From NCBI RefSeq assembly GCF_029232205.1, contig NZ_CP107255.1, positions 810,001 to 842,000 on the forward strand: a DNA stretch of 32,000 nucleotides, given 5' to 3'. Below are positions 1 through 32,000 of the stretch, in pieces. A program made the position numbers and the translations under genes. The number at the start of each line of letters is the position of its first letter. Position 1 is the first letter of the stretch. This stretch comes from Candidatus Saccharimonadota bacterium (GTDB lineage: Archaea > Nanohalarchaeota > Nanosalinia > Nanosalinales > Nanosalinaceae). The notes under the pieces are model-generated. The model was not told where the DNA came from. It ran no database searches and saw nothing but the letters and a program-made list of their open reading frames with translations.

Positions 1-2
1 CT

Positions 3-155
3 TTAATCTCTCTTCAATTTCTTCTTCAAGGCCTTGCTCCCTTTCTTCAAAACATAGGTAACGGCCTTGTACTTCAGATAGTTTTTGCCGATCTTCTTAC
101 CTGATTTCCAGGCCTTCTTCTTTACAGCTTTCTTCAGTTTATCTTTCAACTTCAT
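3..155 (-). CDS. Small (50 aa) extremely lysine-rich protein of unknown function; below the ORF-track length cutoff
   Basis: Hand translation of the minus strand (ATG at 155-153, TAA at 5-3) gives MKLKDKLKKAVKKKAWKSGKKIGKNYLKYKAVTYVLKKGSKALKKKLKRD, with 21 K and 1 R in 50 residues. The ATG lies 1 nt after the trkA stop (TAAGATG). The sense strand is purine-rich like neighbouring genes. I recognise no homolog. Confidence 0.4.
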   Translation of the reverse strand: MKLKDKLKKAVKKKAWKSGKKIGKNYLKYKAVTYVLKKGSKALKKKLKRD

Positions 156-156
156 C

Positions 157-816
157 TTACTGGTCCTGGAAGAACTTATCTAGTTTTTCTTTTTCATCTT
201 CTGGGCCGATTAAGACAAGTTGGTCCTCTTCCTCCAGTTCGATATCGTTCTCGGCTTTCAAAGTATCCTCAGGCTTCACAACAGACAGAACCTGGAAACT
301 CATTGGAAAATGCTTCATAGATTTAAGCTCTCTAATATTTGAACCTGCAAGCTCGGAATCCTCACGGATGGAGGCCTTCAAAACCTCTCTATCATTTGAG
401 AGATTAGCCAACTTCACCAAGTAAGGGTGCTCAACAGAGGAAATAAACTCGGAGAGAAGAATATCTGTATCTCCAATAGTCTCTGCACCGATAATCTGGA
501 AGGCCTCAAAGTACTCTTCATCCTCAATCTTCGAGACAACTTTTGGAACACCGTACTTCTTTCCAAGCGAACAGACAACCATGTTCTGATTGTCATCCTT
601 CAAAGTAGAGATAAGAACATCGGCCTGCGTGATTCCTGCATCTTCAAGAGCTGAAAGAGTGGTCGGAGACTTGTTAATCACCGTGGCCCCTGAAGAAGAA
701 TAAAGCCGTTCACATTTATCCTCATCAGCATCTATAGCAACTATATCATGCCGGCCTTCCAATCGCTCAACCAGCCTTTTCGATAAAGTATTGATACCTG
801 CAATAACTACGTACAT
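157..816 (-). CDS. trkA: Trk-type K+ transport NAD-binding subunit TrkA (RCK N + C domains)
   Basis: 219-aa ORF. The N-terminal Rossmann-like segment MYVVIAGINTLSKRLVERL...DIVAIDADEDKCERL is typical of TrkA-N, followed by a TrkA-C-like half. It starts 2 nt after the trkH stop. Confidence 0.85.
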   Translation of the reverse strand: MYVVIAGINTLSKRLVERLEGRHDIVAIDADEDKCERLYSSSGATVINKSPTTLSALEDAGITQADVLISTLKDDNQNMVVCSLGKKYGVPKVVSKIEDEEYFEAFQIIGAETIGDTDILLSEFISSVEHPYLVKLANLSNDREVLKASIREDSELAGSNIRELKSMKHFPMSFQVLSVVKPEDTLKAENDIELEEEDQLVLIGPEDEKEKLDKFFQDQ

Positions 817-818
817 CT

Positions 819-2243
819 CTACTTGTTTTTGAGAATTCTCTTATTAAATAATGCAAGCAAAGGCAACATCTCCAACCTACCAGCCAGCATAACCACAACC
901 CATATACTCTTAGTCACAGGCGACAACGCCACCATTTTCTGCCCTTCCATGTACACAGGCCCCATATTACCAGCAGCAGAAATAGTACCAGAAAGAGCAG
1001 CCATGAAACTAACATCCTCAACCACCAAAACACCAAGAGTGGCCACAAAAATAACACCAACCCACACAAAGAACAGTACAGAAATAGTTCTGACCACAGA
1101 ATTAGATAATATCTCCCCATCAATCTTAGGCTCATTAACAGCAGTCTCCGGAAGAGAATAAGCCCTCAAACGAGTCTTCAACAACTCAAACAAGGCCTTC
1201 AAACGGAAAACCTTCAGACCTCCTGCGGTAGAACCAAGAGAACCTCCTACAAACATAACTCCAAGGAAAAGAGCCTGCAAAGCAATTGAAAGTGAAGTAA
1301 CACCTATAGTCGAAAAACCTGTTGAAGAGATAACTGCAGCAGAAGTAAAAGTAGAATTAAGCAAAGTCTCAGCTGGACTAAGGCCTTTGCCAATTAATTC
1401 TATAGCAACCAGGCCTGAAACAGCCAGGAAGATAGTAGTATACAGTTTAAACTCTGAGTTCTTCCTGATAGGCCTGATATCTGCACGCAGAAATCTGTAA
1501 AGCAGTACAAAGTTCACTCCGCCGATAAACATGAAGAAGACTGTCGCGGCCTGTATCCTAGCAGGGAATGCTGACATGCTTGCGCCAAGAGTTGAGAAAC
1601 CTCCTGTAGAAATAGTGGCGAAGGCGTGAGCAAATGAGTCAAAAACCGACATACCCATTCCAATGAAAGTACCCATAATCAGCATTGTCAGGAAACCGTA
1701 AACACGCCACAACTCCACAATAGACTTCTTCAGAGAAGGCCTGATGCTGCCAGGATCAGTCTTGTGGGCCTCAGCGGAGAAAAGCCGCCGGGAAATTCCT
1801 CCAGACTCTCTGATCACTGCGATGAAGAAAGTCAGAATTCCAAGACCTCCAATCCACTGCATGAAGGCGCGCCAGAAAAGCATGGATTTGGGCAAGGCCT
1901 CTGGAGCAAGCAACATTGAGATACCAGTAGTAGTCAATCCTGCTGTTGACTCGAAAACCGCGTCAACAGGCGACATAAACTCAAGCAAAGGCGTAGCACC
2001 GATAAAAACAGCTATAAACCATCCTAGCACTGTAGCGTAAAGAGCCTCTGAAATAGTTGGCTCATCAGACGAACCTACGTAGGACAAGAGAAGGCCGAGA
2101 ACAGCTGTAGAAACCGCTGCAAAACCAAAAGAATGGACAGTGGCCTCACCATAGTAGAGGGCAACAGCTACAGGCACAACAATAACAATAGAGAACACCT
2201 GCAGAAACCTTCCAATAATTCTAGAAATAACTGAGGCCCTCAT
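819..2243 (-). CDS. trkH: Trk-type K+ transporter membrane subunit TrkH
   Basis: 474-aa polytopic membrane ORF with four pore-loop-like motifs (LTTTGIS, ISTGGFS, ISSTGFS, AAGNMGP), as in TrkH/KtrB proteins. It forms an operon with trkA. Confidence 0.9.
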   Translation of the reverse strand: MRASVISRIIGRFLQVFSIVIVVPVAVALYYGEATVHSFGFAAVSTAVLGLLLSYVGSSDEPTISEALYATVLGWFIAVFIGATPLLEFMSPVDAVFESTAGLTTTGISMLLAPEALPKSMLFWRAFMQWIGGLGILTFFIAVIRESGGISRRLFSAEAHKTDPGSIRPSLKKSIVELWRVYGFLTMLIMGTFIGMGMSVFDSFAHAFATISTGGFSTLGASMSAFPARIQAATVFFMFIGGVNFVLLYRFLRADIRPIRKNSEFKLYTTIFLAVSGLVAIELIGKGLSPAETLLNSTFTSAAVISSTGFSTIGVTSLSIALQALFLGVMFVGGSLGSTAGGLKVFRLKALFELLKTRLRAYSLPETAVNEPKIDGEILSNSVVRTISVLFFVWVGVIFVATLGVLVVEDVSFMAALSGTISAAGNMGPVYMEGQKMVALSPVTKSIWVVVMLAGRLEMLPLLALFNKRILKNK

Positions 2244-2267
2244 ACCACTGGTTAAGGATTAGGTTGA

Positions 2268-2413: not shown

Positions 2414-2791
2414 ATGAAAGTTACAATAGGTACAACAAACGGCGACACATTTCAAACAGAAGTAGAAGACAATTCTCAACTAATCGGAAACGAAGTAGGA
2501 GACGAAATCGACGGAGGCCTCGTAGGAGTTCCAGGATACACACTGGAAATTACAGGAGGATCCGACAAAGCAGGATTCCCTATGAGAAAAAGCATCGAAG
2601 GATCCGAAAGAAAAAGAGTACTAATCGAAGACGGATCAGGAATCCAGGCAGAAGAAAAAGGAATCAAACAGAGAAAATCCGTCAGAGGCCGAACAGTATC
2701 AGGCCAGATCGAACAACTCAACACAAAAGTAGTAGAAGAAGGTAGCAAGTCCGTAGAAGAAATCCTTGAAGGAGACGAAGAGGAAGAATAA
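2414..2791 (+). CDS. rps6e: 30S ribosomal protein S6e (eS6)
   Basis: MKVTIGTTNGDTFQTEVEDNSQLIGNEVGDEIDGGLVGVPGYTLEITGGSDKAGFPMRKSIEGSERKRVL matches the S6e family. I prefer the ATG at 2414, preceded by GGTGA at 2401-2405, over the ORF-track start at 2264, whose extra 50 aa look non-coding. The C-terminus is acidic (EGDEEEE). Confidence 0.85.
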   Translation: MKVTIGTTNGDTFQTEVEDNSQLIGNEVGDEIDGGLVGVPGYTLEITGGSDKAGFPMRKSIEGSERKRVLIEDGSGIQAEEKGIKQRKSVRGRTVSGQIEQLNTKVVEEGSKSVEEILEGDEEEE

Positions 2792-2798
2792 AACAGCT

Positions 2799-3107: not shown

Positions 3108-4294
3108 GCGAGCAAATACCTGAGGTAAATATCGGTCTTGTAGGACACGTAGATCACGGAAAAACTACTTTGACCAGAGCACTTTCTGGAAAATGGACCG
3201 ATGAACACAGCGAGGAACTGAAGAAAGGAATCACAATCAAGATCGGATACGCCGACATCACATACTACAGAAACGACGAAGGAACACTAAACGTTAAAGA
3301 AGACGGCGAAAAAGAAAGAACAGTTTCTTTAGTAGATGCACCAGGCCACGAAACACTGATGGCAAACGTCCTATCAGGAGCAGCCATCATGGACGGAGCA
3401 GTACTGGTAATCGCGGCAAACGAAGAATGCCCACAACCTCAGACAAGAGAACACCTCGCAGCACTCGATATTATTGGAGTAGAAAACATCGTAATTGTAC
3501 AGAACAAGATCGACCTCGTAGATGAGGAAGAAGCCCGCGAAAACTACAAGGAAATCCAGGAGTTCGTGGAAGGAACAGTAGCAGAAGACGCACCAGTCAT
3601 CCCAATCTCAGCACAGCAGGAAATTAACATTGACGCAGTCCTGGAAGCAATCGACACAGAAATACAGACACCAGAAAGAGACCTTGAAGCCGACGGAAAA
3701 ATGCTAGTAGCAAGATCCTTCGACATCAACAAGCCAGGAACCTCACCGGAAGGCCTGCACGGAGGAGTAGTCGGCGGATCACTAGTAGAAGGAGAACTGG
3801 AAGTAGGAGATGAAATAGAGCTCAGCCCAGGAATCAATCAAGATGAAGAATGGAGAACTGTCAAGACAGAGATCAAAAGCATCATGCACGGAGGAAACCC
3901 TGTAGAAAAAGGAACTCCAGGAGGCCTTCTAGCAATAGAGACAGATCTCGATCCTTCAATGGCAAAATCCGACGGACTATCCGGCAATATTCTAGGAAAA
4001 GAGGGAACACTTCCAGAGACAACAGAAAACATCACTGTGGAAGTAGACCTGATGGACAGAGCCGTAGGATCCGAACAGGAGAAAGAAATCGAAAATATCA
4101 AACAGAACGAACCTCTAATGCTTAACGTCGGCACCTCAAAGTCCGCAGGCATCGTAACTCAGGCCGGAAAGAAGGTAAAACTCGATCTGAAAGTCCCTAT
4201 CTGCGCTGAGGAAGACGACAGAATTGCTATTTCCCGCCAAATAGGCTCTAGATGGCGACTTATCGGCTATGGAAAAATCATCGATAAGGAATAA
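3104..4294 (+). CDS. eif2g: Translation initiation factor aIF2 gamma subunit
   Basis: 396 aa with GTPase motifs [10 protein letters not shown] (G1), DAPGHE (G3) and NKIDL (G4), followed by EF-Tu-like domains II and III. Confidence 0.95.
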
Positions 4295-4333: not shown

Positions 4334-5896
4334 ATGGCCGGCATTCTAGATTCTGCACTAGCTTTCATCATGTCAAGCAACACCAGCATTAGAGTAGCAG
4401 TTACACTACTAATCCTAGTTCTAGGCCACCTCACAGTAAAAAGCTTCAACATGATCTACAACCGGCTATGGATACTCAGAAACGACGAATCCACCAAAAA
4501 AGACCTCGAAAGAAAAAGACAGAGACTACAGTACATATCATACATACTTGACGGCCTCGTCATAACAGGAGCCCTATTCTACCTAAACTCCTCAATGACC
4601 GATCAGATCATCACAGAAACAGCAACATACATCCCAGACATACTAACAGGATTTCTAGTAGCAATCCTAGGAGTAATAACAATAAACATATTCGCAAGAT
4701 TCATAGAGGACTTCCTCAAAACAGTTGGAGTCAGAAACTACTTCAGAGAAGCAGGCCTATCAGTAAACGCATTCAAAATAGTATCAACACTCATCAAAGG
4801 ATTCCTATACCTGATCCTACTACAAATAGTACTAGGCCAACTAGGAATCGCACAAAGCACAATCAACGAGCTAGTAACAGCATCATCATGGGCCGTAGCA
4901 TTCCTCATCGCAGGCCTCGTATTCTACGGATTTAAAGACCTGTTCAAGAACTTCGCAGCAGGAGTATACCTCAAGAACTCCAGAATAGTAAGGCCTGGCG
5001 AGGAAGTCAAGATGGACGATGAAACAGGAGAAATCAAGGAAGTATCGCTCTTCAGCACTACGGTCGACACAAACTCAGGTTTCACAGTGCTGGCACCGAA
5101 CAGCCAGATCATGGACTCAAACCTCAAGTTCAAGAGAACAAGAAGCGACCTCGACACGCTGGAAGAAATAACAAGCTACTTCGTAGCACAGGACCCATCA
5201 TTCTGCGGTCCAGCATCAATGGAAATGGCCCTCGAAATCTTCGGATACAGACACGACCAGAAAGAAATAGGAGAAAAAGCAAACGTCGAAGAAGGAGAAG
5301 GAGCCGACGAACACGTCCTAATGGACTCAGTAGAAGAACTAACAAACAACGAAGTCAAAACAGCATGGATCGGCTACGATGACATCACAGAACTTGACGA
5401 AGAATTCAAGGCCTGGTTCAACGACGGAGCACTAATCGTTCCGAACTTCTACAAACCAGAAATATTCCCAGATGCAACAGCAGGCCACTTCGTACTATCA
5501 GTCGGAGTAGAAGGAGATGAAATACTCATCCTTGATCCAAGTGGAACAAACGGAGGAGTATACTACGTAAACAAAGACCAGCTGAAAGAAGCAATGGCAG
5601 AGTTCGGCCACAAGAGAGGATACATCGTGGTCGCACCAAAAGGAACAACAGCACACTGGAGAATCAAGAACGACCTAATCTACGCAGACAAAAGCGCCTA
5701 CGACGAACTATCCAAGACACTGGAAGCCCGACTAAGAAAGATTCTAAGACAGGGCCGCATCCTGAAAAACTCCACACCTTCCTCAATGGAAGACTACATG
5801 GAGAAATGGGGCGCAAGCGAGAAATTAACACGAATATGGATGCCAGAACAATCAAAACAGGGGGAGGACAAAGATGAAACTACTGAAAATAACTGA
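4334..5896 (+). CDS. MscS-like mechanosensitive channel core fused to a C-terminal C39/papain-like cysteine peptidase domain
   Basis: The N-terminal half has several TM helices. It then shows the MscS TM3/beta-domain signature (AVAFLIAGLVFYGFKDLFKNFAAGVYL...RPGEEVKMDDETGEIKEVSLFSTTVDTNSGFTVLAPNSQIMDSNL). The C-terminal half carries Q-x5-C (VAQDPSFCGPASMEMALEIFGY) and a His/Asp motif (AGHFVLSVGVEGDEILILDPS), as in C39-like peptidases. Confidence 0.7.
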   Translation: MAGILDSALAFIMSSNTSIRVAVTLLILVLGHLTVKSFNMIYNRLWILRNDESTKKDLERKRQRLQYISYILDGLVITGALFYLNSSMTDQIITETATYIPDILTGFLVAILGVITINIFARFIEDFLKTVGVRNYFREAGLSVNAFKIVSTLIKGFLYLILLQIVLGQLGIAQSTINELVTASSWAVAFLIAGLVFYGFKDLFKNFAAGVYLKNSRIVRPGEEVKMDDETGEIKEVSLFSTTVDTNSGFTVLAPNSQIMDSNLKFKRTRSDLDTLEEITSYFVAQDPSFCGPASMEMALEIFGYRHDQKEIGEKANVEEGEGADEHVLMDSVEELTNNEVKTAWIGYDDITELDEEFKAWFNDGALIVPNFYKPEIFPDATAGHFVLSVGVEGDEILILDPSGTNGGVYYVNKDQLKEAMAEFGHKRGYIVVAPKGTTAHWRIKNDLIYADKSAYDELSKTLEARLRKILRQGRILKNSTPSSMEDYMEKWGASEKLTRIWMPEQSKQGEDKDETTENN

Positions 5897-6689: not shown

Positions 6690-6691
6690 AA

Positions 6692-18324: not shown

Positions 18325-18346
18325 AGAGGCCTTATTGTTGGGCCTG

Positions 18347-23240: not shown

Positions 23241-23987
23241 TTAATCGTAGAGATGGTTTACCGACTCTTCTACCTGATCTCTTAGCCATTCTTTACTCAT
23301 TTCCAGTGGTTCATCTACACCCATGTCTTCACGGTTTATGATATCAGAGTAGACTTCCTGAGCTATTACATATCCTATTCCTTCCCATTCACTGTCCATG
23401 CTGAAGATCGAGCTAGTATTATCTCTATCATACCTCTCTCCCTGCCATTCTCTGTTCTTATCAAGTTCTGCGACAACCTCAGCTGCCGGTCCTTCGTACT
23501 CACGAGGATCTCCTCTCCAGGGATACTCTTTTTCTTCTCTAACGAGTTTCTCTCTATGAAGAGCGTGGCCTTCAAGAATCATTGACTCCCACACAACGTG
23601 ATCAAGATCGCTGATATGATCAAAAAATTCCTGGTGAGCTTCTTCGTGGACAACCATGTTTTTCAGGCCAGCCTCCCAGTAATCAGATTCCATAGAGGCC
23701 GCTACAAAAACTGCGTTTCTTTCAGCATGTCCGTGGGCCTCTTTACCGAGAGAGTAACCTCTGAAGTAGAGGCCTTCAGGAGTTCCTTCTGGCAGCTTTT
23801 CAGTATCTACTTCTGCAATTATTACATCGAATTCAGCTTCCATTCCAAGCACATCTCTGATATCCTGAAATGCTTGCTCAGTCTCCTGCCTGAATGATTC
23901 AAAGTTTTCCGGCTCCTCAACTACATCGGAGAAAAACTCCGGAACTGTCTCGGCGTGAGTTTCTGGATCGTATTTTTCGAATCTCAT
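23241..23987 (-). CDS. Hypothetical protein with an HExxH motif (putative Zn-metallopeptidase-like)
   Basis: Contains MVVHEEAHQEF plus further His and Glu residues downstream. I prefer the ATG at 23987 (MRFEKYDPE...), because the ORF-track GTG at 24008 is only 3 nt from the TATA box. Confidence 0.5.
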   Translation of the reverse strand: MRFEKYDPETHAETVPEFFSDVVEEPENFESFRQETEQAFQDIRDVLGMEAEFDVIIAEVDTEKLPEGTPEGLYFRGYSLGKEAHGHAERNAVFVAASMESDYWEAGLKNMVVHEEAHQEFFDHISDLDHVVWESMILEGHALHREKLVREEKEYPWRGDPREYEGPAAEVVAELDKNREWQGERYDRDNTSSIFSMDSEWEGIGYVIAQEVYSDIINREDMGVDEPLEMSKEWLRDQVEESVNHLYD

Positions 23988-24040: not shown

Positions 24041-24595
24041 ATGGCTAAGGCTGTTATTCAGAAAAACTGGTACGAGATTCAGGCACCGGACATTTTCAGT
24101 GTCGACGAAGTAGGCGAGACACCTGCCGAGAAACAATCACAGGTAATTGGCAGAACAGTAAAGGAAGGCCTGAACGAAATGATGGAAGAAACAAGCAAAT
24201 ACTACGTAGATGTAACCCTGAAGGTTACAGAAGTTGAAGGTAACAAGGCCTTCACAGAAATTGATGGAATGGAGTGTTCTTCCGAATTTGTTTCAAGAAT
24301 GATTAGAAAAAGATCCGACAGAATGGATCTGGTACACGACACAAATACAAAAGACGGTAGAAAGGTCAGAGTAAAGGTTATCGGAGCAACACTGAAGAAG
24401 ACTTCCTCCGAAACACTCAAGGCCGTAAGAAAAGAACTCTCAGATATCCTCGACGAGAAAGCTTCCGAACAGAGTTACGAGGAGTTCATGGAGAACATCT
24501 TCCTCGACAACGTACAGGAAGACATGAGAGAAGCAGCCAACGAGATCTACCCATTCCGAGAGCTCGAGATCAGAAAGACCGAGCTCAAAGAATAA
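24041..24595 (+). CDS. rps3ae: 30S ribosomal protein S3Ae (eS1)
   Basis: 184 aa with KNWYEIQAPDIF at the N-terminus and a length typical of the S3Ae family. Confidence 0.9.
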   Translation: MAKAVIQKNWYEIQAPDIFSVDEVGETPAEKQSQVIGRTVKEGLNEMMEETSKYYVDVTLKVTEVEGNKAFTEIDGMECSSEFVSRMIRKRSDRMDLVHDTNTKDGRKVRVKVIGATLKKTSSETLKAVRKELSDILDEKASEQSYEEFMENIFLDNVQEDMREAANEIYPFRELEIRKTELKE

Positions 24596-24672: not shown

Positions 24673-25203
24673 ATGGCAAGTTATGGACGAGCTCCTACTA
24701 GACAGGACACAGACGTAATTGGAAAAAGAGTTGGCGCACAGCTAGTCGACCTATTCGCTGTTGGAGTACTCTCATTCGTAATCCTGCTATTCATGGGATT
24801 CCTGGGAGCTGCAGCAGGAGGATCAGAAAGCGCAGTAGCAGCACTGATGAACAGCCTGGGCTACCTAGTCATCACAGGCCTTCTGATCGGATACAGCTTT
24901 ATCCTGGAAACAGTCTGGAACGGCCAGACAATCGGAAAAAGACTGTTTGGAATCAGAGTAGTCAAAGAAAACGGAGACGAACTCGACGCAGCAGGATCAC
25001 TGATCAGAAACCTTCCAGGCCTAGCATCACTGGGCTTAATCGCCTACCTGGTAGCACTGCTTTCAATGGCATCAAGCGACATGAGACAGAGACTTTTCGA
25101 CAGACTCGCAGGCACAGTAGTAGTCACAGAACACCCACAGAACAATCCACAGCCACAGCAGAACCAGCAGCCAGCACAACAACAGCAAAGGCCTCCACAG
25201 TAA
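24673..25203 (+). CDS. RDD-family membrane protein with a Q/P-rich C-terminal tail
   Basis: 176 aa with GKRVGAQLVDLFAVGVL, QTIGKRLFGIRVV and three hydrophobic segments. The tail is PQNNPQPQQNQQPAQQQQRPPQ. Confidence 0.7.
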   Translation: MASYGRAPTRQDTDVIGKRVGAQLVDLFAVGVLSFVILLFMGFLGAAAGGSESAVAALMNSLGYLVITGLLIGYSFILETVWNGQTIGKRLFGIRVVKENGDELDAAGSLIRNLPGLASLGLIAYLVALLSMASSDMRQRLFDRLAGTVVVTEHPQNNPQPQQNQQPAQQQQRPPQ

Positions 25204-25231: not shown

Positions 25232-25621
25232 TTATCTTAACTCATCCAGCTCACTGTAAAGCTGATCCATACCACCATTCTCTCCGTACGGCATCAACTT
25301 TACCTCCGCACCCTGCGGAATACTGTGATAACGGCCTCCAGGAAACTCGTAAACCTCGCCATCCAGAAGCTTATCATAAACATTCTCACCTAAAACAACC
25401 TCAAAATCACCAATATCGCCGTTCTCAACCTCTCTACCAACTACAGGCCTCTGAAAATGCAGATCCTCCTCATAGGACACATACATATCACCAGCACCTA
25501 GATCTCTGTTATCAGCATCAGCTACAGAACCAGTAACAGGCCCTTCATCAAGATTTTCAAGCTCTCCTTCATCGAAGAAGACGTAAAGTTCACCGGTATC
25601 ATCCGAGAAATTTGCAATCAT
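25232..25621 (-). CDS. Hypothetical acidic protein (129 aa)
   Basis: Clean ORF with codon and strand composition like its neighbours. I recognise no family. Confidence 0.45.
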   Translation of the reverse strand: MIANFSDDTGELYVFFDEGELENLDEGPVTGSVADADNRDLGAGDMYVSYEEDLHFQRPVVGREVENGDIGDFEVVLGENVYDKLLDGEVYEFPGGRYHSIPQGAEVKLMPYGENGGMDQLYSELDELR

Positions 25622-26279: not shown

Positions 26280-26792
26280 TTACCTATAGCTTCTGGCCTT
26301 CTCCATTTTAGGCCTTGCGTGCATTGTGCAGTATGCATCATTTGGATTTTTCTCAAAATAATCTTGATGTTTTTCTTCGGCCTTCCAGAATTTCTCCAAC
26401 TCTTTTACCTCGGTAACTATCTGATCTTCGTATTCAGGCCTTTTCTCTTCGATAAAGTCCTCCACTATTCTTCTCTGTTCCTCAGAATCATAGAGTATTA
26501 TTGATCTGTACTGGCTTCCGACGTCGGGGCCTTCTCTGTCTTCTGTTGTTGGGTCGTGGATTCTGAAGAAGAATTCGAGAATCTTTTCTAGAGAGATTTT
26601 TTGTTCGTTGTATTCTACTTTGATGACTTCTGCGTGGCCTGTTTTTCCTGTGCATACTTGTCTATAGGAAGGGTTTTCTGTGTGGCCTCCTGCGTATCCC
26701 GAAGTTACTTTTTCTACTCCTTTGAGTTCTTTGAATGCGGCTTCTGTGCACCAGAAGCATCCTCCGCCAAGCACCACTGTTTCCATAACCAT
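26280..26792 (-). CDS. msrA: Peptide methionine (S)-sulfoxide reductase MsrA
   Basis: 170 aa with GGGCFWCTEAAF, YAGGHTENPSYRQVCTGKTGHAEV and HDPTT. Confidence 0.92.
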   Translation of the reverse strand: MVMETVVLGGGCFWCTEAAFKELKGVEKVTSGYAGGHTENPSYRQVCTGKTGHAEVIKVEYNEQKISLEKILEFFFRIHDPTTEDREGPDVGSQYRSIILYDSEEQRRIVEDFIEEKRPEYEDQIVTEVKELEKFWKAEEKHQDYFEKNPNDAYCTMHARPKMEKARSYR

Positions 26793-27254: not shown

Positions 27255-27731
27255 ATGGATCCTACCACTATACTGGTTTTAGGCCTTTTGATCGCTGGCG
27301 TAGTTGGCAGTATTCTCCCTATGATGCCAGGTGCTCTTTTCTCGCTGGCAGCGGTCCTGATCTACTTTTTCCAATCGCCGGACCCAAGTATCTTGTTTGT
27401 GATCTTCGGTGCACTGACTTCTGTCTTTGCGCTGGCTGTTGACTGGTTTGCAGGAGCAGTTGCAGCAAATTACGGTGGGGCCTCTAAGAAGACCAGTATG
27501 GCAGCAGCTGTCACAGGTTTCCTTGGTTTCATCTTTCTTGGAGGGCCTGTAGGCCTGGCTTTCGCAGTCTCGCTTACAGTGTTTTTCAGGGAGTACCTGA
27601 TTCATGGCGATCAGGAGGACGGTGCAAAGGCCGCTCTCTACGCGACTATCGGAGTTATGGGATCTGCAATTATTCAGGGCATGTTGACTGGCTCAGTTCT
27701 ACTTGCGTATCTTGTAGCATACCTGATCTAA
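27255..27731 (+). CDS. DUF456-like small membrane protein
   Basis: 158 aa with four hydrophobic segments. The N-terminal GSILPMMPGALFSLAAVLIYFF resembles the DUF456 signature. The assignment is tentative. Confidence 0.5.
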   Translation: MDPTTILVLGLLIAGVVGSILPMMPGALFSLAAVLIYFFQSPDPSILFVIFGALTSVFALAVDWFAGAVAANYGGASKKTSMAAAVTGFLGFIFLGGPVGLAFAVSLTVFFREYLIHGDQEDGAKAALYATIGVMGSAIIQGMLTGSVLLAYLVAYLI

Positions 27732-27765: not shown

Positions 27766-28257
27766 ATGAATATTTCCAGGAAGGAGTTCAGAGAAGAGGC
27801 CACGGAGGCAACCCTCTGCTTCATCATTCAAGATGGAGAGACACTTCTGATCGAGAAGAAGAGAGGAGTTGGCGAAGGCCTGTTCAACGGTCCTGGAGGG
27901 AAAATCGAGGATAAAGAATCTCCGAAGGAAGCAGCTATCAGGGAGACAGTTGAGGAAACAAGAGTAAGGCCTGAAGAAGTTGAGAAAATTGGAGAGCTTG
28001 AGTTCGTGTTCGGAGATCAACCTTTCATGTTTGTACATGTTTTCAGGGCAGAAGGATTTTCAGGCGATCCCGAGGAAACAGAAGAGGCCCGTCCAGAATG
28101 GTTTAATACTGGAGATCTGCCCTTTGATGAGATGTGGCCCGATGATCGCTACTGGATTCCAAAGATGCTGGCAGAAGAAAAGTTTTTAGCCAGATTTCTG
28201 TTTGATGAAGATGGAGAAGAAATATTGGCCCACGAATTTGAAGAACCAAAATTTTGA
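27766..28257 (+). CDS. NUDIX hydrolase, MTH1/NUDT1-like (oxidised purine nucleoside triphosphatase)
   Basis: 163 aa with the Nudix box GPGGKIEDKESPKEAAIRETVEETRV. It is colinear with my recollection of human MTH1, including FVHVF, RPEWF and LPFDEMWPDDRYWIPKML. Confidence 0.8.
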   Translation: MNISRKEFREEATEATLCFIIQDGETLLIEKKRGVGEGLFNGPGGKIEDKESPKEAAIRETVEETRVRPEEVEKIGELEFVFGDQPFMFVHVFRAEGFSGDPEETEEARPEWFNTGDLPFDEMWPDDRYWIPKMLAEEKFLARFLFDEDGEEILAHEFEEPKF

Positions 28258-29097: not shown

Positions 29098-31104
29098 CTA
29101 GCCTTTTAGAGAAACAGGAAAACCAACAACCCTGGTCTCATACTCTCCTCCCTCTCCAGCAGCATTGAACCTGTACTCATCGGCCAGATCCAGCAATTCT
29201 TCTATATTTTCTTCATCAAGAACTTCTCCTTCCCACTCCTCAGTAAGGCCTCGTGCCGCAACAGAAGTAATTTCAACTTTGAAACCTTCACGAATCAGCC
29301 ACTTCATATACCGGGCCTGGTCCTCCTGCCAGAGCGGAGTAAACACTTTCAGGCCTACCCTATCAGCTAGTTTATCTACTCTATCTCTCTGGTACGTCGA
29401 AGCCAGTGCTCCAGCAACTACTCCTTCAACATTGTACTCTTCACGGGCTTTTTCTAGGCCTTTCCGCAGATCCTCCAGTTCAACCTCTTTCTCACCTTCA
29501 GTCTCCTGAACAAGCAACGGAATTCCAAGTTTCTCCGACTGCTCGTCTAAATGGCCGCGAGACTTCTTCGAGTCAAACATGTAGCTGTCCTTATTCTCCG
29601 ACCTCAAAGTCAGAAGACATGAAATTTTATTATTCCTGCGCTGAATTCTGTAAAGCGCGGCGTTGGAGTCTTTACCACCAGAAGTCAGGGCCACAACCCT
29701 GTTATTTGGTTTTCGTTGAAGATCAGAGATCTTCTGCGATCCAGAAAATCCTCGATTTTCGGATTCGCGTAGAGAATTAAGGTATTCCTGTTTGTGATCA
29801 AATCCTTTGTCGCGTGAAAGCCTGTCGATCGCCTTATCAAAATTGCTGCCGTACTGGGCCGCAGTCTTACCTCTCCACGCCACCTTCTCCGGCACGCCCA
29901 GTTTTTCAGCGGCCTTCCGCAACACATACTTCCTGTAATCATCTTTCACCTTGTACTCTTCCGGGATCGTCAATGCATGTTCAATCAAGTCGTGATCAAG
30001 GAATGGAAGCCTGAGCTCTCGGCCATTACGGAAACTGATAACGTTATCACGGTAGAGATCTCTTTCAAATATCCCTCGAAGGCCTGAAAGACACTCCTTA
30101 TTCAGATATCCTTGCTGACGGTGATAGCCAGCGTAAAGCTGCTCGCTACCTAGGCCAGAAAACACGACTTGCTCGTTATCCTGATTCTTCTGCAATGCAA
30201 AGTGGAAAGGCAGGGCCACACCGTTCTTGACTACGGAGGTAGATGAAATCCAGTCAACGATTTCAGGCAAAACCTCTTCCACTTCTTCAAGACTGGCTTC
30301 GTAGGCCTCAAGTTCGATATCCATTTCCTCGGCAATTTCCTGGGCCCAGTCCATGTCACGCGGCGCATTAACATTTCCATGTTGAATGCCTGCAGTATAA
30401 GCGGTGAAACCCTTATCAAGTTCTTGCAGAGCCGCAGCAATAAGAGTAGAATCGACACCACCAGAGAACAGAAGGCCTACATCTCCTTCAGGAACCCTCT
30501 TCTTCACGGCCCCTAGGAACTTCTCCTTTATCTCTTCAGCAGCTTGATCAATCTCTATGGCCTCTTTCACATCTATTTCAAAGAATTCTCTCTGCTGGAA
30601 AGAAACTTCATCTTCCTCAATATCATATCTAAGTATTCTGCGAGGATGTAGTTCTCGACACTCCAAACCTTCTTTTTCCAAGGCCTGTCTCTCCGATGCA
30701 AAAACAAACTCTTCATCAGAGTACCAGACAGGATTGACTCCGAGAACATCTCTTGCAATTATAATTTCACCATCTTTCAGGTATGCAAATGCGTAGATGC
30801 CGTCAACCTCTTCAAGGCCTTCCACACCTTTCTCATCAAGCAGCTTAAGGAGTGTTTCAGCATCGTTTTCTGTCTCCCAGCCGTATTTTTCGTTCAACTC
30901 TTTCCAGTTGTATATTTCGCAGTTAGCGGAGAGAAGGCCTTTATCCTCGATAGGTTGGGAAAGTTCTCCAACTACTGAGTGAAGGTAGTGGCCTATAGCA
31001 AAGTTTTCTATTTCAACTGTTTCACAGGAGCTGCCTCTGTGACTTAGATGCTGATTCAGGGCCTTTACTGTTTCCCTGTTTTTTGCTCCTGTTATTCCGC
31101 ACAT
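29098..31104 (-). CDS. Fusion protein: class-II glutamine amidotransferase + asparagine-synthetase-like PP-loop domain + C-terminal Dph6/MJ0570-like (diphthine-ammonia ligase family) PP-loop ATPase
   Basis: 668 aa. The N-terminus has MCGI (Cys2 nucleophile), NCEIYN, DGIYAFAY and ARDVLGVNPVWY. The middle has LLFSGGVDST. The last ~215 aa carry VVALTSGGKDSNAALY, VEGVVAGALASTYQRDRVDKL, VFTPLWQ and GEGGEYETRVV, typical of the MJ0570/Dph6 family. Confidence 0.8.
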   Translation of the reverse strand: MCGITGAKNRETVKALNQHLSHRGSSCETVEIENFAIGHYLHSVVGELSQPIEDKGLLSANCEIYNWKELNEKYGWETENDAETLLKLLDEKGVEGLEEVDGIYAFAYLKDGEIIIARDVLGVNPVWYSDEEFVFASERQALEKEGLECRELHPRRILRYDIEEDEVSFQQREFFEIDVKEAIEIDQAAEEIKEKFLGAVKKRVPEGDVGLLFSGGVDSTLIAAALQELDKGFTAYTAGIQHGNVNAPRDMDWAQEIAEEMDIELEAYEASLEEVEEVLPEIVDWISSTSVVKNGVALPFHFALQKNQDNEQVVFSGLGSEQLYAGYHRQQGYLNKECLSGLRGIFERDLYRDNVISFRNGRELRLPFLDHDLIEHALTIPEEYKVKDDYRKYVLRKAAEKLGVPEKVAWRGKTAAQYGSNFDKAIDRLSRDKGFDHKQEYLNSLRESENRGFSGSQKISDLQRKPNNRVVALTSGGKDSNAALYRIQRRNNKISCLLTLRSENKDSYMFDSKKSRGHLDEQSEKLGIPLLVQETEGEKEVELEDLRKGLEKAREEYNVEGVVAGALASTYQRDRVDKLADRVGLKVFTPLWQEDQARYMKWLIREGFKVEITSVAARGLTEEWEGEVLDEENIEELLDLADEYRFNAAGEGGEYETRVVGFPVSLKG

Positions 31105-31178
31105 ACTATCTTGGTTGCAGGTGAAGACTTTTGAGTCTGTAACAGAACCACTAAGTCAGAAATTTACCAGTAACAGCA

Positions 31179-31186
31179 TTTTTATG
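31179..31186 (+). promoter_or_regulatory. TATA-like box (TTTTTATG) for the 31210 gene
   Basis: Centred about 27 nt upstream of the ATG at 31210. Confidence 0.35.
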
Positions 31187-31209
31187 ATTTCAAGTTGTAA
31201 AACTGGCTC

Positions 31210-31578
31210 ATGAGCAAAATAAGGGATAGACTGGGCGACAGACTTGAGCCTGGAAACAGTTCAGGCATGGAACTGAACGAGGAAAAACTACTGGAAGAAG
31301 ATACCACACCAGATAGAGAAAACACAGTAAGCTACCCAATACACTATTCCGAAGGTGCCGAAGGAGATTACGTAACTTTAAACTTCTCAGATCCTGTAGG
31401 CAAAAAGACTCTAATCCCCGACTATACAGCAACCCGCGTATCAAACTCTGATTCAACGGAAGTCTGGAGCGTCGGAGCTGAAGAAGGAACAGTCGAAGTA
31501 GAAGTAGATTCAAACATCAAATCGAAAGATAAACTCGCCAATGCATTGAAAACAGCATACGACGAGGCAATAAGATAG
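31210..31578 (+). CDS. Hypothetical acidic protein (122 aa)
   Basis: Clean ORF with a promoter-like element at the expected distance. I recognise no family. Confidence 0.4.
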   Translation: MSKIRDRLGDRLEPGNSSGMELNEEKLLEEDTTPDRENTVSYPIHYSEGAEGDYVTLNFSDPVGKKTLIPDYTATRVSNSDSTEVWSVGAEEGTVEVEVDSNIKSKDKLANALKTAYDEAIR

Positions 31579-31581
31579 AAA

Positions 31582-32000
31582 CTAGTCGGTGCTGTAGTCA
31601 GCAGAGAAGTCGGAAAGGCCTTTCTGCGAGTTATCTATTGCATCGTATGAGTTAATGACGTCAGCCATTTCAACCTCTACGAACTCGAGCTCGCGGTCCT
31701 CAAGGTAGTCCAGAACTTTATCCGTCATCTTCGGCGCGACAAGAATTCCTCGGATAGTTCCCTGGAACTCTTCATCGATCTCATCCACATACCGCTGAAG
31801 CTGCAGAACAGTGTTGTAATCCGGATTCCTCTTCACCTCTATAACCACATAGTTATTTTCTTCATCACGGGCGAACACATCGATAAATCCTGCAGGAGTT
31901 TCTCTTTCACGTTCAATAACTTTGAGGCCCTCCTCCACTATTTCAGGCTCCTCTTCAATCGACTCATGTATATCTACTTCGTGGCCGGCGATCTTGAGCT
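31582..32000 (-). CDS. nucS: NucS/EndoMS-like endonuclease, 5'-truncated by the window edge
   Basis: The RecB-like nuclease core is present (GFIDVFARDEENNYVVIEVKRNPDYNTVLQLQRYV...GILVAPKMTDKV). The frame stays open upstream of the ORF-track GTG (31938) to position 32000 (..LKIAGHEVDIHESIEEEPEIVEEGLKV..). Confidence 0.7.
   Translation of the reverse strand, partial: LKIAGHEVDIHESIEEEPEIVEEGLKVIERERETPAGFIDVFARDEENNYVVIEVKRNPDYNTVLQLQRYVDEIDEEFQGTIRGILVAPKMTDKVLDYLEDRELEFVEVEMADVINSYDAIDNSQKGLSDFSADYSTD

What the first reader, a model, noticed from the sequence alone, without database searches (positions are those of the whole stretch)
1..32000. AGGCCT (and GGCC in general) is strongly over-represented in all frames, on both strands and in spacers
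Scanning by eye I counted about 83 AGGCCT and about 240 GGCC in 32 kb. This is a hand count and probably a slight undercount. With G+C of roughly 43-46% (spot-checked on a few lines, not computed), zero-order expectation is about 5-7 AGGCCT and about 70-80 GGCC. That gives roughly 13-fold and 3-fold excesses.

About one third of all GGCC sites are flanked A...T. The motif occurs in all three codon phases:
- GAA GGC CTG (E-G-L, AGGCCT starting at 3751)
- AGG CCT (R-P, starting at 4991)
- AAG GCC TGG (K-A-W, starting at 5409)

The codons creating the motif (GGC, AGG, GCC) appear to be the minority synonyms elsewhere; GGA, AGA and GCA dominate by eye. That points to a DNA-level pressure rather than an amino-acid effect. 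The motif also occurs in spacers, for example 18327, 23199 (inside the palindrome GAAAAGGCCTTTTC) and 27273.

Short palindromes are usually avoided in prokaryotes, so enrichment is unusual. Possible causes are very-short-patch-type mismatch repair coupled to a GGCC- or AGGCCT-specific cytosine methyltransferase, a protein-binding or uptake-type signal, or a structural or chromatin motif.
Basis: partly seen in the sequence, partly recalled or inferred. Interest (0 to 1): 0.65.

Follow-up and report, generated by a model that had tools for sequence, protein, structure and literature searches.

The report
Hyper-abundant AGGCCT palindrome in nanohaloarchaea
In this salt-loving nano-sized archaeon the six-letter palindrome AGGCCT is the commonest hexamer in the DNA, filling about two thirds of all places where proteins allow it, which points to an unidentified protein that reads this word, much like the unexplained 'HIP1' palindrome of cyanobacteria.

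Summary
The window has exactly 83 AGGCCT and 243 GGCC at 45.0% G+C. Dinucleotide-preserving shuffles give 7.4±2.7 AGGCCT, and protein- and codon-usage-preserving shuffles give 16.3±3.5 against 79 in coding sequence.

AGGCCT is the most frequent hexamer. It is spread evenly over 36 genes, and 63-64% of all positions that could encode it synonymously do so. "GGCC in general" is not enriched. The excess belongs to A/T-flanked GGCC: 13.4x with both flanks, 3.6x with one, 0.95x with none.

The window comes from a nanohaloarchaeon (DPANN). The same hexamer is 7-23x enriched in some relatives and absent in others. An eight-marker tree needs four gains or losses.

A very-short-patch (T:G-only) repair drive is disfavoured:
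- GGA falls from about 55% to 6% before C, a transversion route.
- Transition neighbours are not erased.
- A Markov model caps such a drive at 4-9x.

In the strict-hexamer clades the pressure also changes amino acids, and nearby sites interfere with each other.

Best reading: a HIP1-like iterated palindrome kept up by selection, or a selection-like drive, on the whole motif. It is read by a Type-II-like protein, possibly a lone cytosine methyltransferase. The determinant was not found, and I found no prior report in the searched literature.

The parts
1..32000 (.). Whole window: uniform AGGCCT excess (2.6 per kb; 2-10 sites in every 2-kb bin) across 36 ORFs of a nanohaloarchaeal chromosome segment
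29..34 (.). AGGCCT site, left of the first complete ORF (probably in a gene cut by the window edge)
110..115 (.). AGGCCT site, left of the first complete ORF
372..377 (.). AGGCCT site in ORF
501..506 (.). AGGCCT site in ORF
1193..1198 (.). AGGCCT site in ORF
1381..1386 (.). AGGCCT site in ORF
1411..1416 (.). AGGCCT site in ORF
1470..1475 (.). AGGCCT site in ORF
1737..1742 (.). AGGCCT site in ORF
1895..1900 (.). AGGCCT site in ORF
2515..2520 (.). AGGCCT site in ORF
3751..3756 (.). AGGCCT site in aIF2-gamma ORF, phase GAA-GGC-CTG
3922..3927 (.). AGGCCT site in ORF
4753..4758 (.). AGGCCT site in ORF
4912..4917 (.). AGGCCT site in ORF
4991..4996 (.). AGGCCT site in ORF, phase AGG-CCT (R-P)
5409..5414 (.). 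AGGCCT site in ORF, phase AAG-GCC-TGG (K-A-W)
7578..7583 (.). AGGCCT site in ORF
7908..7913 (.). AGGCCT site in ORF
8060..8065 (.). AGGCCT site in ORF
8387..8392 (.). AGGCCT site in ORF
8412..8417 (.). AGGCCT site in ORF
8612..8617 (.). AGGCCT site in ORF
9129..9134 (.). AGGCCT site in ORF
10142..10147 (.). AGGCCT site in ORF
10556..10561 (.). AGGCCT site in ORF
11650..11655 (.). AGGCCT site in ORF
12128..12133 (.). AGGCCT site in ORF
12468..12473 (.). AGGCCT site in ORF
12652..12657 (.). AGGCCT site in ORF
13185..13190 (.). AGGCCT site in ORF
13284..13289 (.). AGGCCT site in ORF
13934..13939 (.). AGGCCT site in ORF
14903..14908 (.). AGGCCT site in ORF
15011..15016 (.). AGGCCT site in ORF
15110..15115 (.). 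AGGCCT site in ORF
15446..15451 (.). AGGCCT site in ORF
17055..17060 (.). AGGCCT site in ORF
17421..17426 (.). AGGCCT site in ORF
17505..17510 (.). AGGCCT site in ORF
17650..17655 (.). AGGCCT site in ORF
18122..18127 (.). AGGCCT site in ORF
18327..18332 (.). AGGCCT site, intergenic (18325-18426)
18707..18712 (.). AGGCCT site in ORF
19539..19544 (.). AGGCCT site in ORF
20175..20180 (.). AGGCCT site in ORF
20370..20375 (.). AGGCCT site in LamG-domain ORF (13 of 13 encodable positions realized)
20458..20463 (.). AGGCCT site in LamG-domain ORF
20546..20551 (.). AGGCCT site in LamG-domain ORF
20639..20644 (.). AGGCCT site in LamG-domain ORF
20785..20790 (.). AGGCCT site in LamG-domain ORF
21082..21087 (.). 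AGGCCT site in LamG-domain ORF
21244..21249 (.). AGGCCT site in LamG-domain ORF
21700..21705 (.). AGGCCT site in LamG-domain ORF
21744..21749 (.). AGGCCT site in LamG-domain ORF
22320..22325 (.). AGGCCT site in LamG-domain ORF
22341..22346 (.). AGGCCT site in LamG-domain ORF
22373..22378 (.). AGGCCT site in LamG-domain ORF
22599..22604 (.). AGGCCT site in LamG-domain ORF
23199..23204 (.). AGGCCT site, intergenic, centre of the 14-nt palindrome GAAAAGGCCTTTTC
23770..23775 (.). AGGCCT site in ORF
24166..24171 (.). AGGCCT site in ORF
24246..24251 (.). AGGCCT site in ORF
24876..24881 (.). AGGCCT site in ORF
25017..25022 (.). AGGCCT site in ORF
25189..25194 (.). AGGCCT site in ORF
25445..25450 (.). 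AGGCCT site in ORF
26310..26315 (.). AGGCCT site in ORF
26436..26441 (.). AGGCCT site in ORF
27281..27286 (.).
27551..27556 (.). AGGCCT site in ORF
27876..27881 (.). AGGCCT site in ORF
27967..27972 (.). AGGCCT site in ORF
29246..29251 (.). AGGCCT site in ORF
29351..29356 (.). AGGCCT site in ORF
29456..29461 (.). AGGCCT site in ORF
30080..30085 (.). AGGCCT site in ORF
30303..30308 (.). AGGCCT site in ORF
30473..30478 (.). AGGCCT site in ORF
30681..30686 (.). AGGCCT site in ORF
30815..30820 (.). AGGCCT site in ORF
30935..30940 (.). AGGCCT site in ORF
31616..31621 (.). AGGCCT site in NucS-like ORF

Best explanation
AGGCCT is a lineage-specific, hyper-abundant palindrome of the same kind as the cyanobacterial HIP sequences. 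A directional force that rewards the complete motif acts on all DNA of the cell. This force is either natural selection for site density or a selection-like drive.

Shown:
- The force has pushed about two thirds of all synonymously available positions, and intergenic DNA, to AGGCCT.
- Sites are retained or re-created faster than background synonymous divergence.
- In the strict-hexamer clades the force has changed amino-acid sequences.
- The force weakens when another site lies within about 50 bp.

Inferred:
- The motif is read by a trans-acting protein with Type-II-restriction/modification-like specificity. The grounds are a 6-bp palindrome, flank stringency that differs between clades, and patchy phylogenetic distribution.
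- The most likely reader is the solitary Type II cytosine methyltransferase that the REBASE survey reports for the two complete nanohaloarchaeal genomes it covers.
- The benefit lies in having a read or methylated site every few hundred base pairs, for example self-marking, DNA exchange or repair, or nucleoid organisation.

Very-short-patch repair may contribute but cannot be the main cause.
For: Reality and strength of the excess:
- Searches give exact counts and three null models.
- 63-64% of encodable positions are realized in the window and 52-76% in other enriched genomes. Relatives without the trait show 0-20%.

Whole-motif force:
- Gly GGA falls from about 55% to 6% before C, and GCC rises from 16% to 57% after G.
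- All core one-mismatch neighbours are mildly depleted and none is erased.
- The VSP-only model is capped at 3.8-8.9x.

DNA-level action:
- Pooled intergenic regions are 34x enriched.
- All three codon phases carry sites.
- No extended context and no repeat element surrounds the sites.

Retention:
- 12/19 sites are retained against 5.1 expected, and 12/14 against 2.6.
- In deep comparisons, occupancy of shared positions is independent, odds ratio about 1-2.

Protein-level effect:
- AGGCCT-encodable peptides occur 726 times only in the enriched genome and 404 times only in the non-enriched one. Six control palindromes give ratios of 0.86-1.10.

Interference between sites:
- Pairs 9-50 nt apart number 36 against 52.0 +/- 5.3 under permutation among potential positions, P = 0.0015.

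Trans-factor inference:
- Enriched taxa fall in four separate places on an 8-marker tree (4 changes in 199/200 bootstraps).
- Specificity is a strict hexamer in some clades and relaxed to the half-site AGGCC in the window clade.
- Some relatives avoid GGCC almost completely.
- In the REBASE survey, M3_22 has one lone Type II MTase (m4C type) as its only RM gene. Nanohalobium constans has one Type II MTase (m5C type) (PMC10609329).

HIP parallels:
- PMC4390886 and PMC5861425.
Against: - No methyltransferase, endonuclease or other candidate reader was found in any fetched locus. Whole genomes could not be scanned.
- The two REBASE methyltransferases belong to different classes (m4C and m5C), yet all four enriched lineages share the same hexamer. 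This is awkward if unrelated methyltransferases are the cause. It fits better with one shared determinant of another kind.
- No methylation data exist for AGGCCT. The one published nanohaloarchaeal methylome reports only GDGcHC, and that organism is not one of the fetched loci.
- Known persistent orphan methyltransferase targets (CTAG, GATC, GANTC) are not hyper-abundant, so methylation alone does not predict enrichment.
- The short-range interference was noticed post hoc and is modest.
- Selection of this strength on about 2,500 sites in a small-genome symbiont is demanding, which favours a drive over classical selection.
Confidence: 0.5

Rival explanations
1. DNA uptake- or exchange-type molecular drive. 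A DNA import or cell-to-cell transfer machinery binds AGGCCT preferentially. Alleles carrying the motif are therefore taken up and recombined more often, and the motif accumulates without any benefit to the cell, as proposed for USS and DUS.
For: - The force acts on all positions of the motif.
- It saturates synonymous opportunities.
- It reshapes protein sequences. USS are known to do the same (own knowledge: Findlay and Redfield 2009).
- Sites are positionally interchangeable.
- There are clade-specific 'dialects' of flank stringency.
- Diminishing returns for nearby sites.
- The window encodes a secreted SNase-type nuclease.
- Nanohaloarchaea depend on host-derived nucleic-acid precursors (PMC10266531).
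- Recent preprints link HIP1 to transformation and horizontal transfer (10.1101/2024.09.10.611283; 10.64898/2026.06.24.733823).
Against: - Known uptake signals are 9-12 nt and asymmetric. A 6-bp palindrome gives little discrimination, since foreign DNA of similar G+C carries about 0.2 sites per kb.
- Natural transformation has not been shown in nanohaloarchaea.
- No competence gene was identified here.
- The interference range (under 50 bp) is much shorter than a plausible uptake fragment.
Confidence: 0.2
2. Binding sites of an abundant nucleoid or chromatin protein. A dimeric DNA-binding protein recognises AGGCCT, and selection favours a high density of its sites for chromosome organisation.
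For: - A palindrome suits a homodimer.
- Each flank contributes separately to the enrichment in the window clade: 0.95x, 3.6x and 13.4x.
- Short-range interference under 50 bp is the size of a protein footprint.
- Xu et al. favour a nucleoid-structure role for HIP1 (PMC5861425).
Against: - Known nucleoid proteins have degenerate preferences and do not produce 13-23x k-mer excesses.
- No candidate gene was found.
- A core chromatin protein would not be expected to show four gains or losses among close relatives.
Confidence: 0.12
3. Side effect of very-short-patch (T:G to C:G) repair coupled to an AGGCCT- or GGCC-specific m5C methyltransferase, as with CCWGG in E. coli.
For: - A palindromic Type-II-like motif with cytosines.
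- Eight of twelve single-step differences between the window and L001 at AGGCCT sites are C/T transitions in the core.
- Nanohalobium constans has one m5C-type Type II MTase (PMC10609329).
Against: - GGA (a transversion donor) is depleted more than GGT.
- Transition neighbours are at 0.9-1.7x of zero-order expectation, not erased.
- The model caps the excess at 3.8x or 8.9x, with neighbours going to zero.
- The drive would be site-autonomous, yet sites interfere.
- It cannot explain amino-acid changes that need several substitutions.
- The closest complete relative carries an m4C-type, not an m5C-type, MTase.
Confidence: 0.06
4. RNA-level signal. Because the word is palindromic, every transcript of either strand carries AGGCCU, which could be read by an RNA-binding protein or nuclease.
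For: - The motif is present whichever strand is transcribed.
- Compact intergenic regions are probably largely transcribed.
Against: - A requirement for strand symmetry has no rationale at the RNA level.
- Xu et al. found no RNA or peptide role for HIP1 (PMC5861425).
- Nothing in the flanking context suggests structure.
Confidence: 0.03
5. Artefact of base composition, codon usage or amino-acid composition.
For: Acidic halophile proteomes do create strong k-mer biases (GAAGAA and similar).
Against: - Rejected by dinucleotide shuffles (z about 28) and by protein- and codon-preserving shuffles (z 17.7).
- Rejected by context-dependent codon choice and by the intergenic excess.
- Absent in relatives with the same proteome type and G+C.
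Confidence: 0.01

Closest known systems
HIP1 (GCGATCGC) and the alternative highly iterated palindromes of cyanobacteria, e.g. GGCGCC in Calothrix PCC 7103 (Elhai 2015, PMC4390886; Xu, Lawrence and Durand 2018, PMC5861425)
   Same: - A short palindrome at about 500-2700 copies per Mb, 15-300x over expectation.
- Present in all reading frames and between genes.
- Retained between orthologues beyond background.
- Lineage-specific, with exceptions and variant motifs.
- The sequence looks like a Type II methyltransferase target.
- The mechanism is unresolved, with selection favoured over biased repair.
   Different: - Here the domain is Archaea (DPANN), the word is a hexamer with a GGCC core rather than a GATC core, and the proteome is halophilic.
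- No cognate methyltransferase has been demonstrated.
- The same word recurs in four separate lineages rather than one large clade.
- Kilobase-scale periodicity could not be examined in 32 kb.
DNA uptake sequences (USS of Pasteurellaceae, DUS of Neisseriaceae); own knowledge
   Same: - About one copy per kb or more, in genes in all frames.
- Clade-specific dialects.
- A measurable imprint on protein sequences.
- Explained by a drive acting on the whole motif.
   Different: - USS and DUS are 9-12 nt and non-palindromic, with a known receptor or competence machinery.
- None of that is shown here.
Dcm/Vsr very-short-patch repair and the CCWGG excess with CTWGG deficit in E. coli (own knowledge: Bhagwat and McClelland 1992; Gelfand and Koonin 1997)
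   Same: The over-represented word is a cytosine-methyltransferase-type palindrome.
   Different: - The E. coli effect is well under 2-fold and comes with depletion of the T-containing neighbour.
- Here the excess is 13-23x, uses transversion routes and spares the neighbours.
StuI (AGGCCT) and HaeIII-type (GGCC) restriction-modification specificities, and persistent or orphan GGCC m4C methyltransferases (HG15 of Sulfolobus acidocaldarius, PMC10609329; M.Ssp6803II, own knowledge)
   Same: - The recognition word is identical.
- Some nanohaloarchaeal relatives show the classical opposite signature, near-total GGCC avoidance (L022, L210).
   Different: Restriction-modification normally causes avoidance or no bias in the host genome, not enrichment. 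No such gene was located here.

Membership tests
HIP-type highly iterated palindromes | Short palindrome more than 10x over expectation, hundreds to thousands of copies per Mb | tested here: met
   83 in 32 kb, about 2,600 per Mb. Excess is 13.4x over zero-order, 11x over dinucleotide shuffles and 4.8x over protein- and codon-preserving shuffles. It is the most frequent hexamer.
HIP-type highly iterated palindromes | Occurs in all reading frames and in intergenic DNA, and is not part of a longer repeat element | tested here: met
   Codon phases carry 14, 19 and 46 sites. There is no conserved context beyond +/-1 nt and no tandem or dispersed repeats. Pooled intergenic DNA of enriched relatives is 34x enriched.
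HIP-type highly iterated palindromes | Sites retained between orthologous genes more than background synonymous divergence predicts | tested here: met
   12/19 retained against 5.1 expected (P = 0.001), and 12/14 against 2.6. In deep comparisons occupancy is independent between genomes.
HIP-type highly iterated palindromes | Cognate (often orphan) DNA methyltransferase recognising the palindrome or its core | not testable with these tools
   No MTase lies in any fetched locus. The only evidence is circumstantial. The REBASE survey lists one lone Type II MTase in M3_22 (m4C type) and one in Nanohalobium constans (m5C type), both of unknown specificity.
HIP-type highly iterated palindromes | Quasi-periodic distribution at the 10-90 kb scale | not testable with these tools
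   Only 32 kb is available. At short range, spacing is Poisson-like (CV 0.99) with a deficit of pairs closer than 50 nt.
DNA uptake sequences (USS/DUS) | Asymmetric 9-12 nt motif recognised by a competence receptor | tested here: not met
   The motif is a 6-bp palindrome with only a weak preference at +/-1.
DNA uptake sequences (USS/DUS) | Motif pressure visible in protein sequences | tested here: met
   726 positions against 404 (1.8x). Controls give 0.86-1.10. The effect is strong in the strict-hexamer clades and weak (1.2x) in the window itself.
DNA uptake sequences (USS/DUS) | Natural competence or DNA import machinery co-occurring with the motif | not tested
None was seen in the window.
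VSP-repair-driven word bias (Dcm/Vsr type) | Specific depletion of the T:G deamination neighbours of the enriched word | tested here: not met
   AGGTCT/AGACCT are at 1.45x and AGGCTT/AAGCCT at 0.92x of zero-order. They are no more depleted than transversion neighbours when compared with non-enriched relatives.
VSP-repair-driven word bias (Dcm/Vsr type) | Gains arise through T-to-C only, and the magnitude is bounded | tested here: not met
   GGA drops from about 55% to 6% and GGT from 20-29% to 10% before C. The model's upper bound is 3.8-8.9x, against 13-23x observed.
VSP-repair-driven word bias (Dcm/Vsr type) | vsr-like endonuclease plus m5C methyltransferase in the genome | not testable with these tools
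Restriction-site avoidance | Recognition palindrome under-represented in the host genome | tested here: not met
   The sign is opposite for AGGCCT. Avoidance is seen instead in relatives L022 (GGCC 0.17x) and L210 (1 GGCC in 21 kb).

The most novel reading that the evidence does not exclude
AGGCCT is the first archaeal counterpart of HIP/USS-type genome-wide signals. It would be a 'self' word read by a still unknown protein, either a DNA-exchange or uptake receptor or a chromatin organiser, and not simply a methyltransferase side effect. Its determinant would have moved horizontally between at least four nanohaloarchaeal lineages. Its pressure is strong enough to saturate synonymous sites and rewrite protein sequences in obligate ectosymbionts with 1-Mb genomes.
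Probability: 0.3. Interest if true: 0.85.

Novelty: new member of a known kind. Interest (0 to 1): 0.68.

Why it matters
Hyper-abundant palindromes are a 30-year-old puzzle known essentially from cyanobacteria (HIP1).

An independent case would help for several reasons:
- It has a different word and lies in a different domain of life.
- The genomes are tiny.
- Some members grow in co-culture (for example Nanohalobium constans).
- Sister lineages with and without the trait give a natural comparative design for finding the determinant by phylogenetic profiling.
- The methylation, DNA-exchange and chromatin hypotheses can each be tested directly.

There are also practical consequences:
- AGGCCT density is a strong binning and lineage marker for these MAGs.
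- StuI or HaeIII sensitivity is an immediate wet-lab read-out.
- Codon-usage and dN/dS analyses in these genomes are biased by the motif.

Tried and rejected
- **Longer repeat or mobile element:** rejected. There is no conserved context beyond +/-1 nt and no tandem or dispersed repeats under the sites, including the equal spacings 88/88 and 105/105 nt.
- **Composition or codon artefact:** rejected.
- **Finding the source contig or strain variants for a polymorphism test:** one look-up found nothing. Another returned a 3.4-kb Logan contig identical to the window. The metagenome scan found no relative closer than about 75% nucleotide identity.
- **Searching fetched loci for C5 or N4/N6 methyltransferase motifs:** nothing credible.
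- **Viral contigs with dense AGGCCT:** The dense hits were not halophilic, having basic proteomes and 36% or above 60% G+C. I abandoned this line.
- **Is the window Ca. Nanohalococcus occultus SVXNc, whose methylome is known?** No. Its avoided motif GDGCHC is at ordinary levels here.
- **Positional conservation across deep lineages as a sign of site-specific function:** not found.
- **Literature searches:** searches for AGGCCT or GGCC over-representation in nanohaloarchaea or other archaea found no report.
- **Tool limit:** Methyltransferase genes could therefore not be sought in the relatives' genomes.

Full report
**1. The observation**

Three nulls of increasing stringency all reject chance:
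- Zero-order composition expects 6 AGGCCT and 81 GGCC.
- 100 dinucleotide-preserving shuffles give 7.37 +/- 2.67 AGGCCT, largest 18.
- 1000 shuffles of synonymous codons within each gene preserve protein sequence and per-gene codon usage. They give 16.3 +/- 3.5 (largest 30) against 79 in coding sequence, and 91.4 +/- 7.1 against 227 for GGCC.

AGGCCT is the most frequent hexamer in the window. Nearly all other palindromic tetramers and hexamers are under-represented; for example, CATATG and TAGCTA are 0 against 9.3 expected.

The sites are scattered:
- Gap CV is 0.99.
- There are 2-10 sites per 2-kb bin.
- All three codon phases occur, and genes on both strands carry sites.
- No conserved context extends beyond a weak preference at +/-1.
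- No repeat element lies underneath.

Per-gene occupancy is homogeneous. Genes without a site simply have 0-2 positions where one could be encoded.

'27273' should be 27281, and that site lies in an ORF.

**2. What exactly is enriched**

Splitting GGCC by its flanks changes the picture:

| Class | Observed / expected | Ratio |
|---|---|---|
| A 5' and T 3' (AGGCCT) | 83 / 6.2 | 13.4x |
| One of the two flanks | 119 / 32.7 | 3.6x |
| Neither flank | 41 / 43.1 | 0.95x |

So 'GGCC in general' is not the enriched object. The maximal-order Markov analysis agrees. The signal sits at GGCC (z 19) and AGGCC/GGCCT (z 9), and the hexamer count equals the product of the two pentamer preferences.

A measure that controls for protein sequence is the fraction of CDS positions at which AGGCCT could be encoded synonymously and actually is. 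This is 63-64% in the window: 77/120 with automatic gene calls and 79/126 with curated ones.

Codon choice is strongly context-dependent:
- Gly is GGC in 76% of cases before C and 19% otherwise (odds ratio 12.8, p = 8e-36). Before CT it is 85%.
- Ala is GCC in 57% of cases after G and 16% otherwise (p = 3e-23).

**3. Where the window comes from and how far the trait extends**

The ORFs encode archaeal informational proteins (aIF2-gamma, Rpo7, Kae1, Bud32, S6e, S15, S3Ae, a RecJ/GAN-like protein and NucS). The proteome is very acidic. The nearest species representative is Candidatus Nanohaloarchaea archaeon M3_22 (CP046106.1). Its aIF2-gamma is 94% identical, and 14 kb is collinear at 80.6% nucleotide identity.

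Among about 30 nanohaloarchaeal loci around aIF2-gamma, AGGCCT enrichment is as follows:

| Locus | Enrichment |
|---|---|
| Window | 13.4x |
| L001 (M3_22) | 8.5x |
| L002 | 8x |
| L004 | 20x |
| L009, L015 (Nanohalobium sp.) | 18x |
| L025 | 21x |
| L027 | 7x |
| All the others, including Nanosalina J07AB43 and Nanosalinarum J07AB56 | about 1x |

Further points on extent:
- Realized/encodable fractions are 52-76% in the strongly enriched genomes and 19% in L027. In the rest they are 0-20%, mostly 2-10%.
- In M3_22 the excess continues outside the block homologous to the window (11.5x in 6.9 kb).
- An independent set of metagenome contigs around the RecJ-like gene shows the same dichotomy. 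L202/L203 are 8.7x, L204 17x, L205 20x, L209 23.5x and L211 14.7x. L206-L208 show none.
- In L004, L009, L015 and L025 the signal is a strict hexamer: 18-21x, 1.2-1.8x and 0.3-0.6x for two, one and no flanks. The window clade tolerates one wrong flank.
- Pooled intergenic DNA of the strict clades carries 16 sites in 3,352 bp (34x, P = 2e-19). For the window clade it is 3 in 3.9 kb. For non-enriched relatives it is 1 against 2.1 expected.

On an 8-marker concatenated NJ tree (1,929 columns) the trait needs four changes in 199 of 200 bootstrap replicates. Three enriched groups each have 100% support. L004 pairs with non-enriched Nanosalina in 93% of replicates. Monophyly of all enriched taxa has 0% support.

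**4. How the sites evolve**

Between the window and M3_22, fourfold sites are only 49% identical. AGGCCT sites at positions with conserved amino acids are nevertheless kept in 12 of 19 cases against 5.1 expected from background synonymous divergence (P = 0.001). In the other direction the figure is 12 of 14 against 2.6.

In deep comparisons, occupancy of positions that both genomes could use is statistically independent (odds ratios about 1-2). Many sites lie where the other genome's protein cannot encode the motif at all. Sites are therefore interchangeable. What is maintained is their number, not their location.

At aligned orthologous positions, peptides able to encode AGGCCT occur only in the enriched genome 726 times and only in the non-enriched genome 404 times (1.8x). 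Six control palindromes give 0.86-1.10. The pressure thus reaches the protein level in the strict-hexamer clades (about 2x). In the window itself the effect is weak (117 against 98).

Sites also interfere with each other. When realized sites are permuted among encodable positions, pairs 9-50 nt apart number 36 against 52.0 +/- 5.3 (P = 0.0015). The direction is the same in 10 of 11 loci. The chance that an encodable position is realized rises from 0.47 when another site is 9-20 nt away to 0.68 at 101-200 nt. I noticed this after looking at spacings, so it needs confirmation on whole genomes.

**5. Mechanism**

This makes specific predictions, and they fail:
- Such repair only turns T:G into C:G. 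Yet the dominant Gly codon GGA falls from about 55% to 6% before C, which needs an A-to-C change. GGT falls only from 20-29% to 10%.
- The deamination neighbours are at 0.9-1.45x of zero-order expectation in the window. Compared with non-enriched relatives they are no more depleted than transversion neighbours.
- I modelled all 4,096 hexamers as a Markov chain with ordinary mutation plus an arbitrarily efficient context-specific T-to-C correction. The excess saturates at 3.8x for the inner cytosines and at 8.9x for all four C:G pairs, and the transition neighbours are driven to zero. The data show 13-23x with neighbours present.
- A site-autonomous repair bias predicts neither interference between sites nor multi-step amino-acid changes.

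The data require a force that rewards the finished motif whichever mutation produces it. That force is either selection for site density or a selection-like drive such as biased uptake or recombination. Relative to GC-matched relatives (27/393 = 7% realized), the shift in odds is about 24-43-fold. That corresponds to a scaled coefficient of about 3.2-3.8 (inference).

Several features point to a trans-acting protein with Type-II-like specificity that is gained and lost (inference):
- The motif is a 6-bp palindrome.
- Flank stringency differs between clades.
- The phylogenetic distribution is patchy.
- Some relatives avoid GGCC almost completely: L022 at 0.17x and L210 with 1 site in 21 kb.

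The REBASE survey of archaeal RM systems is only circumstantial support (PMC10609329). It lists a single lone Type II methyltransferase of m4C type as the only RM gene of M3_22. For Ca. Nanohalobium constans it lists one Type II methyltransferase of m5C type, plus Type I and IIG systems. Their specificities are unknown. I could not fetch these genes, and no methyltransferase lies in any locus I hold.

The two enzymes are of different classes while the enriched word is the same in all four lineages. This is a point against unrelated methyltransferases being the cause.

The only published nanohaloarchaeal methylome (Ca. Nanohalococcus occultus) reports GDGcHC, was blind to m5C, and concerns an organism that none of my loci represents (PMC10266531, PMC11001535).

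**6. Comparison with known systems**

The closest match is the HIP family of cyanobacteria. These have comparable densities (300-2,700 per Mb), occupy all frames and spacers, and are retained between orthologues. Individual lineages carry variant hexamer or pentamer palindromes (GGCGCC, GCsGC, rCCGGy). They are associated with orphan methyltransferases, and the function is unresolved. Xu et al. argue for selection over biased repair (PMC4390886, PMC5861425). Recent preprints tie HIP1 to transformation and horizontal transfer.

The defining features I could test are met. The cognate methyltransferase and long-range periodicity could not be tested.

Uptake sequences share the whole-motif drive and the imprint on proteins, but they are longer and asymmetric. 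The Dcm/Vsr effect fails its tests. Restriction avoidance has the opposite sign.

**7. Novelty and verdict**

Six full-text searches found no report of AGGCCT or GGCC over-representation in nanohaloarchaea or other archaea. Subscription-only literature was not covered.

I classify the finding as a new member of a known kind: a HIP-like iterated palindrome in DPANN archaea. The phenomenon is real, strong and lineage-specific. Its reader and its function are unknown.

My confidence by reading:

| Reading | Confidence |
|---|---|
| HIP-like element under whole-motif selection or drive, read by a Type-II-like protein | about 0.5 |
| Uptake or exchange drive | about 0.2 |
| Chromatin binding | about 0.12 |
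| VSP alone | about 0.06 |
| RNA-level signal | about 0.03 |
| Artefact | about 0.01 |

Noticed in passing
L022 (whole locus, 21.2 kb) and L210 (whole locus, 21.4 kb): Two nanohaloarchaeal relatives show the opposite bias. GGCC is almost absent: 13 sites (0.17x) in L022, and 1 site in 21 kb at 39% G+C in L210. This is the classical signature of a GGCC-cutting restriction system in the same phylum.
   Followed up: partly
window 1-32000: Apart from GGCC, GATC and TCGA, all palindromic tetramers are under-represented (TTAA 0.35, CGCG 0.37, TATA 0.40, GCGC 0.41). Several palindromic hexamers are absent (CATATG, TAGCTA, GCTAGC, GGTACC, TGCGCA, ACGCGT) or nearly so (CTTAAG, 1 against 9.3). CGGCCG and GGGCCC occur once each.
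   Followed up: no
pooled AGGCCT sites of window, L001, L004, L009, L015, L025, L202, L204, L205, L209, L211: AGGCCT sites are less often realized within about 50 nt of another site. There are 36 pairs at 9-50 nt against 52 +/- 5.3 under permutation among encodable positions. This suggests diminishing returns or a footprint effect.
   Followed up: yes
window 20370-20639 and 29246-29456: There are runs of equally spaced AGGCCT sites (88, 88, 93 nt and 105, 105 nt) with no underlying DNA repeat. Two exact ties among 81 successive gap pairs is more than the roughly 0.1 expected. Pooled data show no periodicity.
   Followed up: partly
window 20333-23188 (-): A 951-aa secreted protein with three LamG/concanavalin-like domains and DUF2341 has AGGCCT at all 13 positions where it can be encoded synonymously.
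   Followed up: partly
window 23195-23208: A perfect 14-nt palindrome GAAAAGGCCTTTTC lies in the 52-nt spacer between two minus-strand genes, centred on an AGGCCT site. It may be a small hairpin or terminator-like element.
   Followed up: no
window 5874-9515: A cluster of four adjacent ATP-grasp / RimK-like / carboxylate-amine-ligase-like genes, three on the plus strand and one convergent. The second (6692-7573) has homologues in most of the relatives' loci examined.
   Followed up: no
window 16999-17541 (+) and 31582-32000 (-): A secreted staphylococcal-nuclease homologue with an N-terminal hydrophobic segment. There is also a NucS/EndoMS-type mismatch endonuclease gene whose reading frame runs off the right end of the window.
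   Followed up: partly
L024 (whole locus): The nanohaloarchaeon QJJ-5 locus has ATCGAT 46 times against 5 expected, and TCGA and GATC at about 3.3x. This may be an amino-acid (Ile-Asp / Asp-rich) effect or another iterated palindrome.
   Followed up: no
L082, L124, L153 (IMG/VR contigs, 36% G+C): Low-GC viral contigs that are not halophile-like carry AGGCCT at 15-32x and GGCC at 4-7x over expectation, partly in clusters. They appear unrelated to nanohaloarchaea.
   Followed up: no
L004 17512-17528: A direct repeat AGAGGCCTCACAGAGGCCTCA carries two AGGCCT sites 11 nt apart, just downstream of a gene end. It is one of several intergenic site clusters in the strict-hexamer clades.
   Followed up: no
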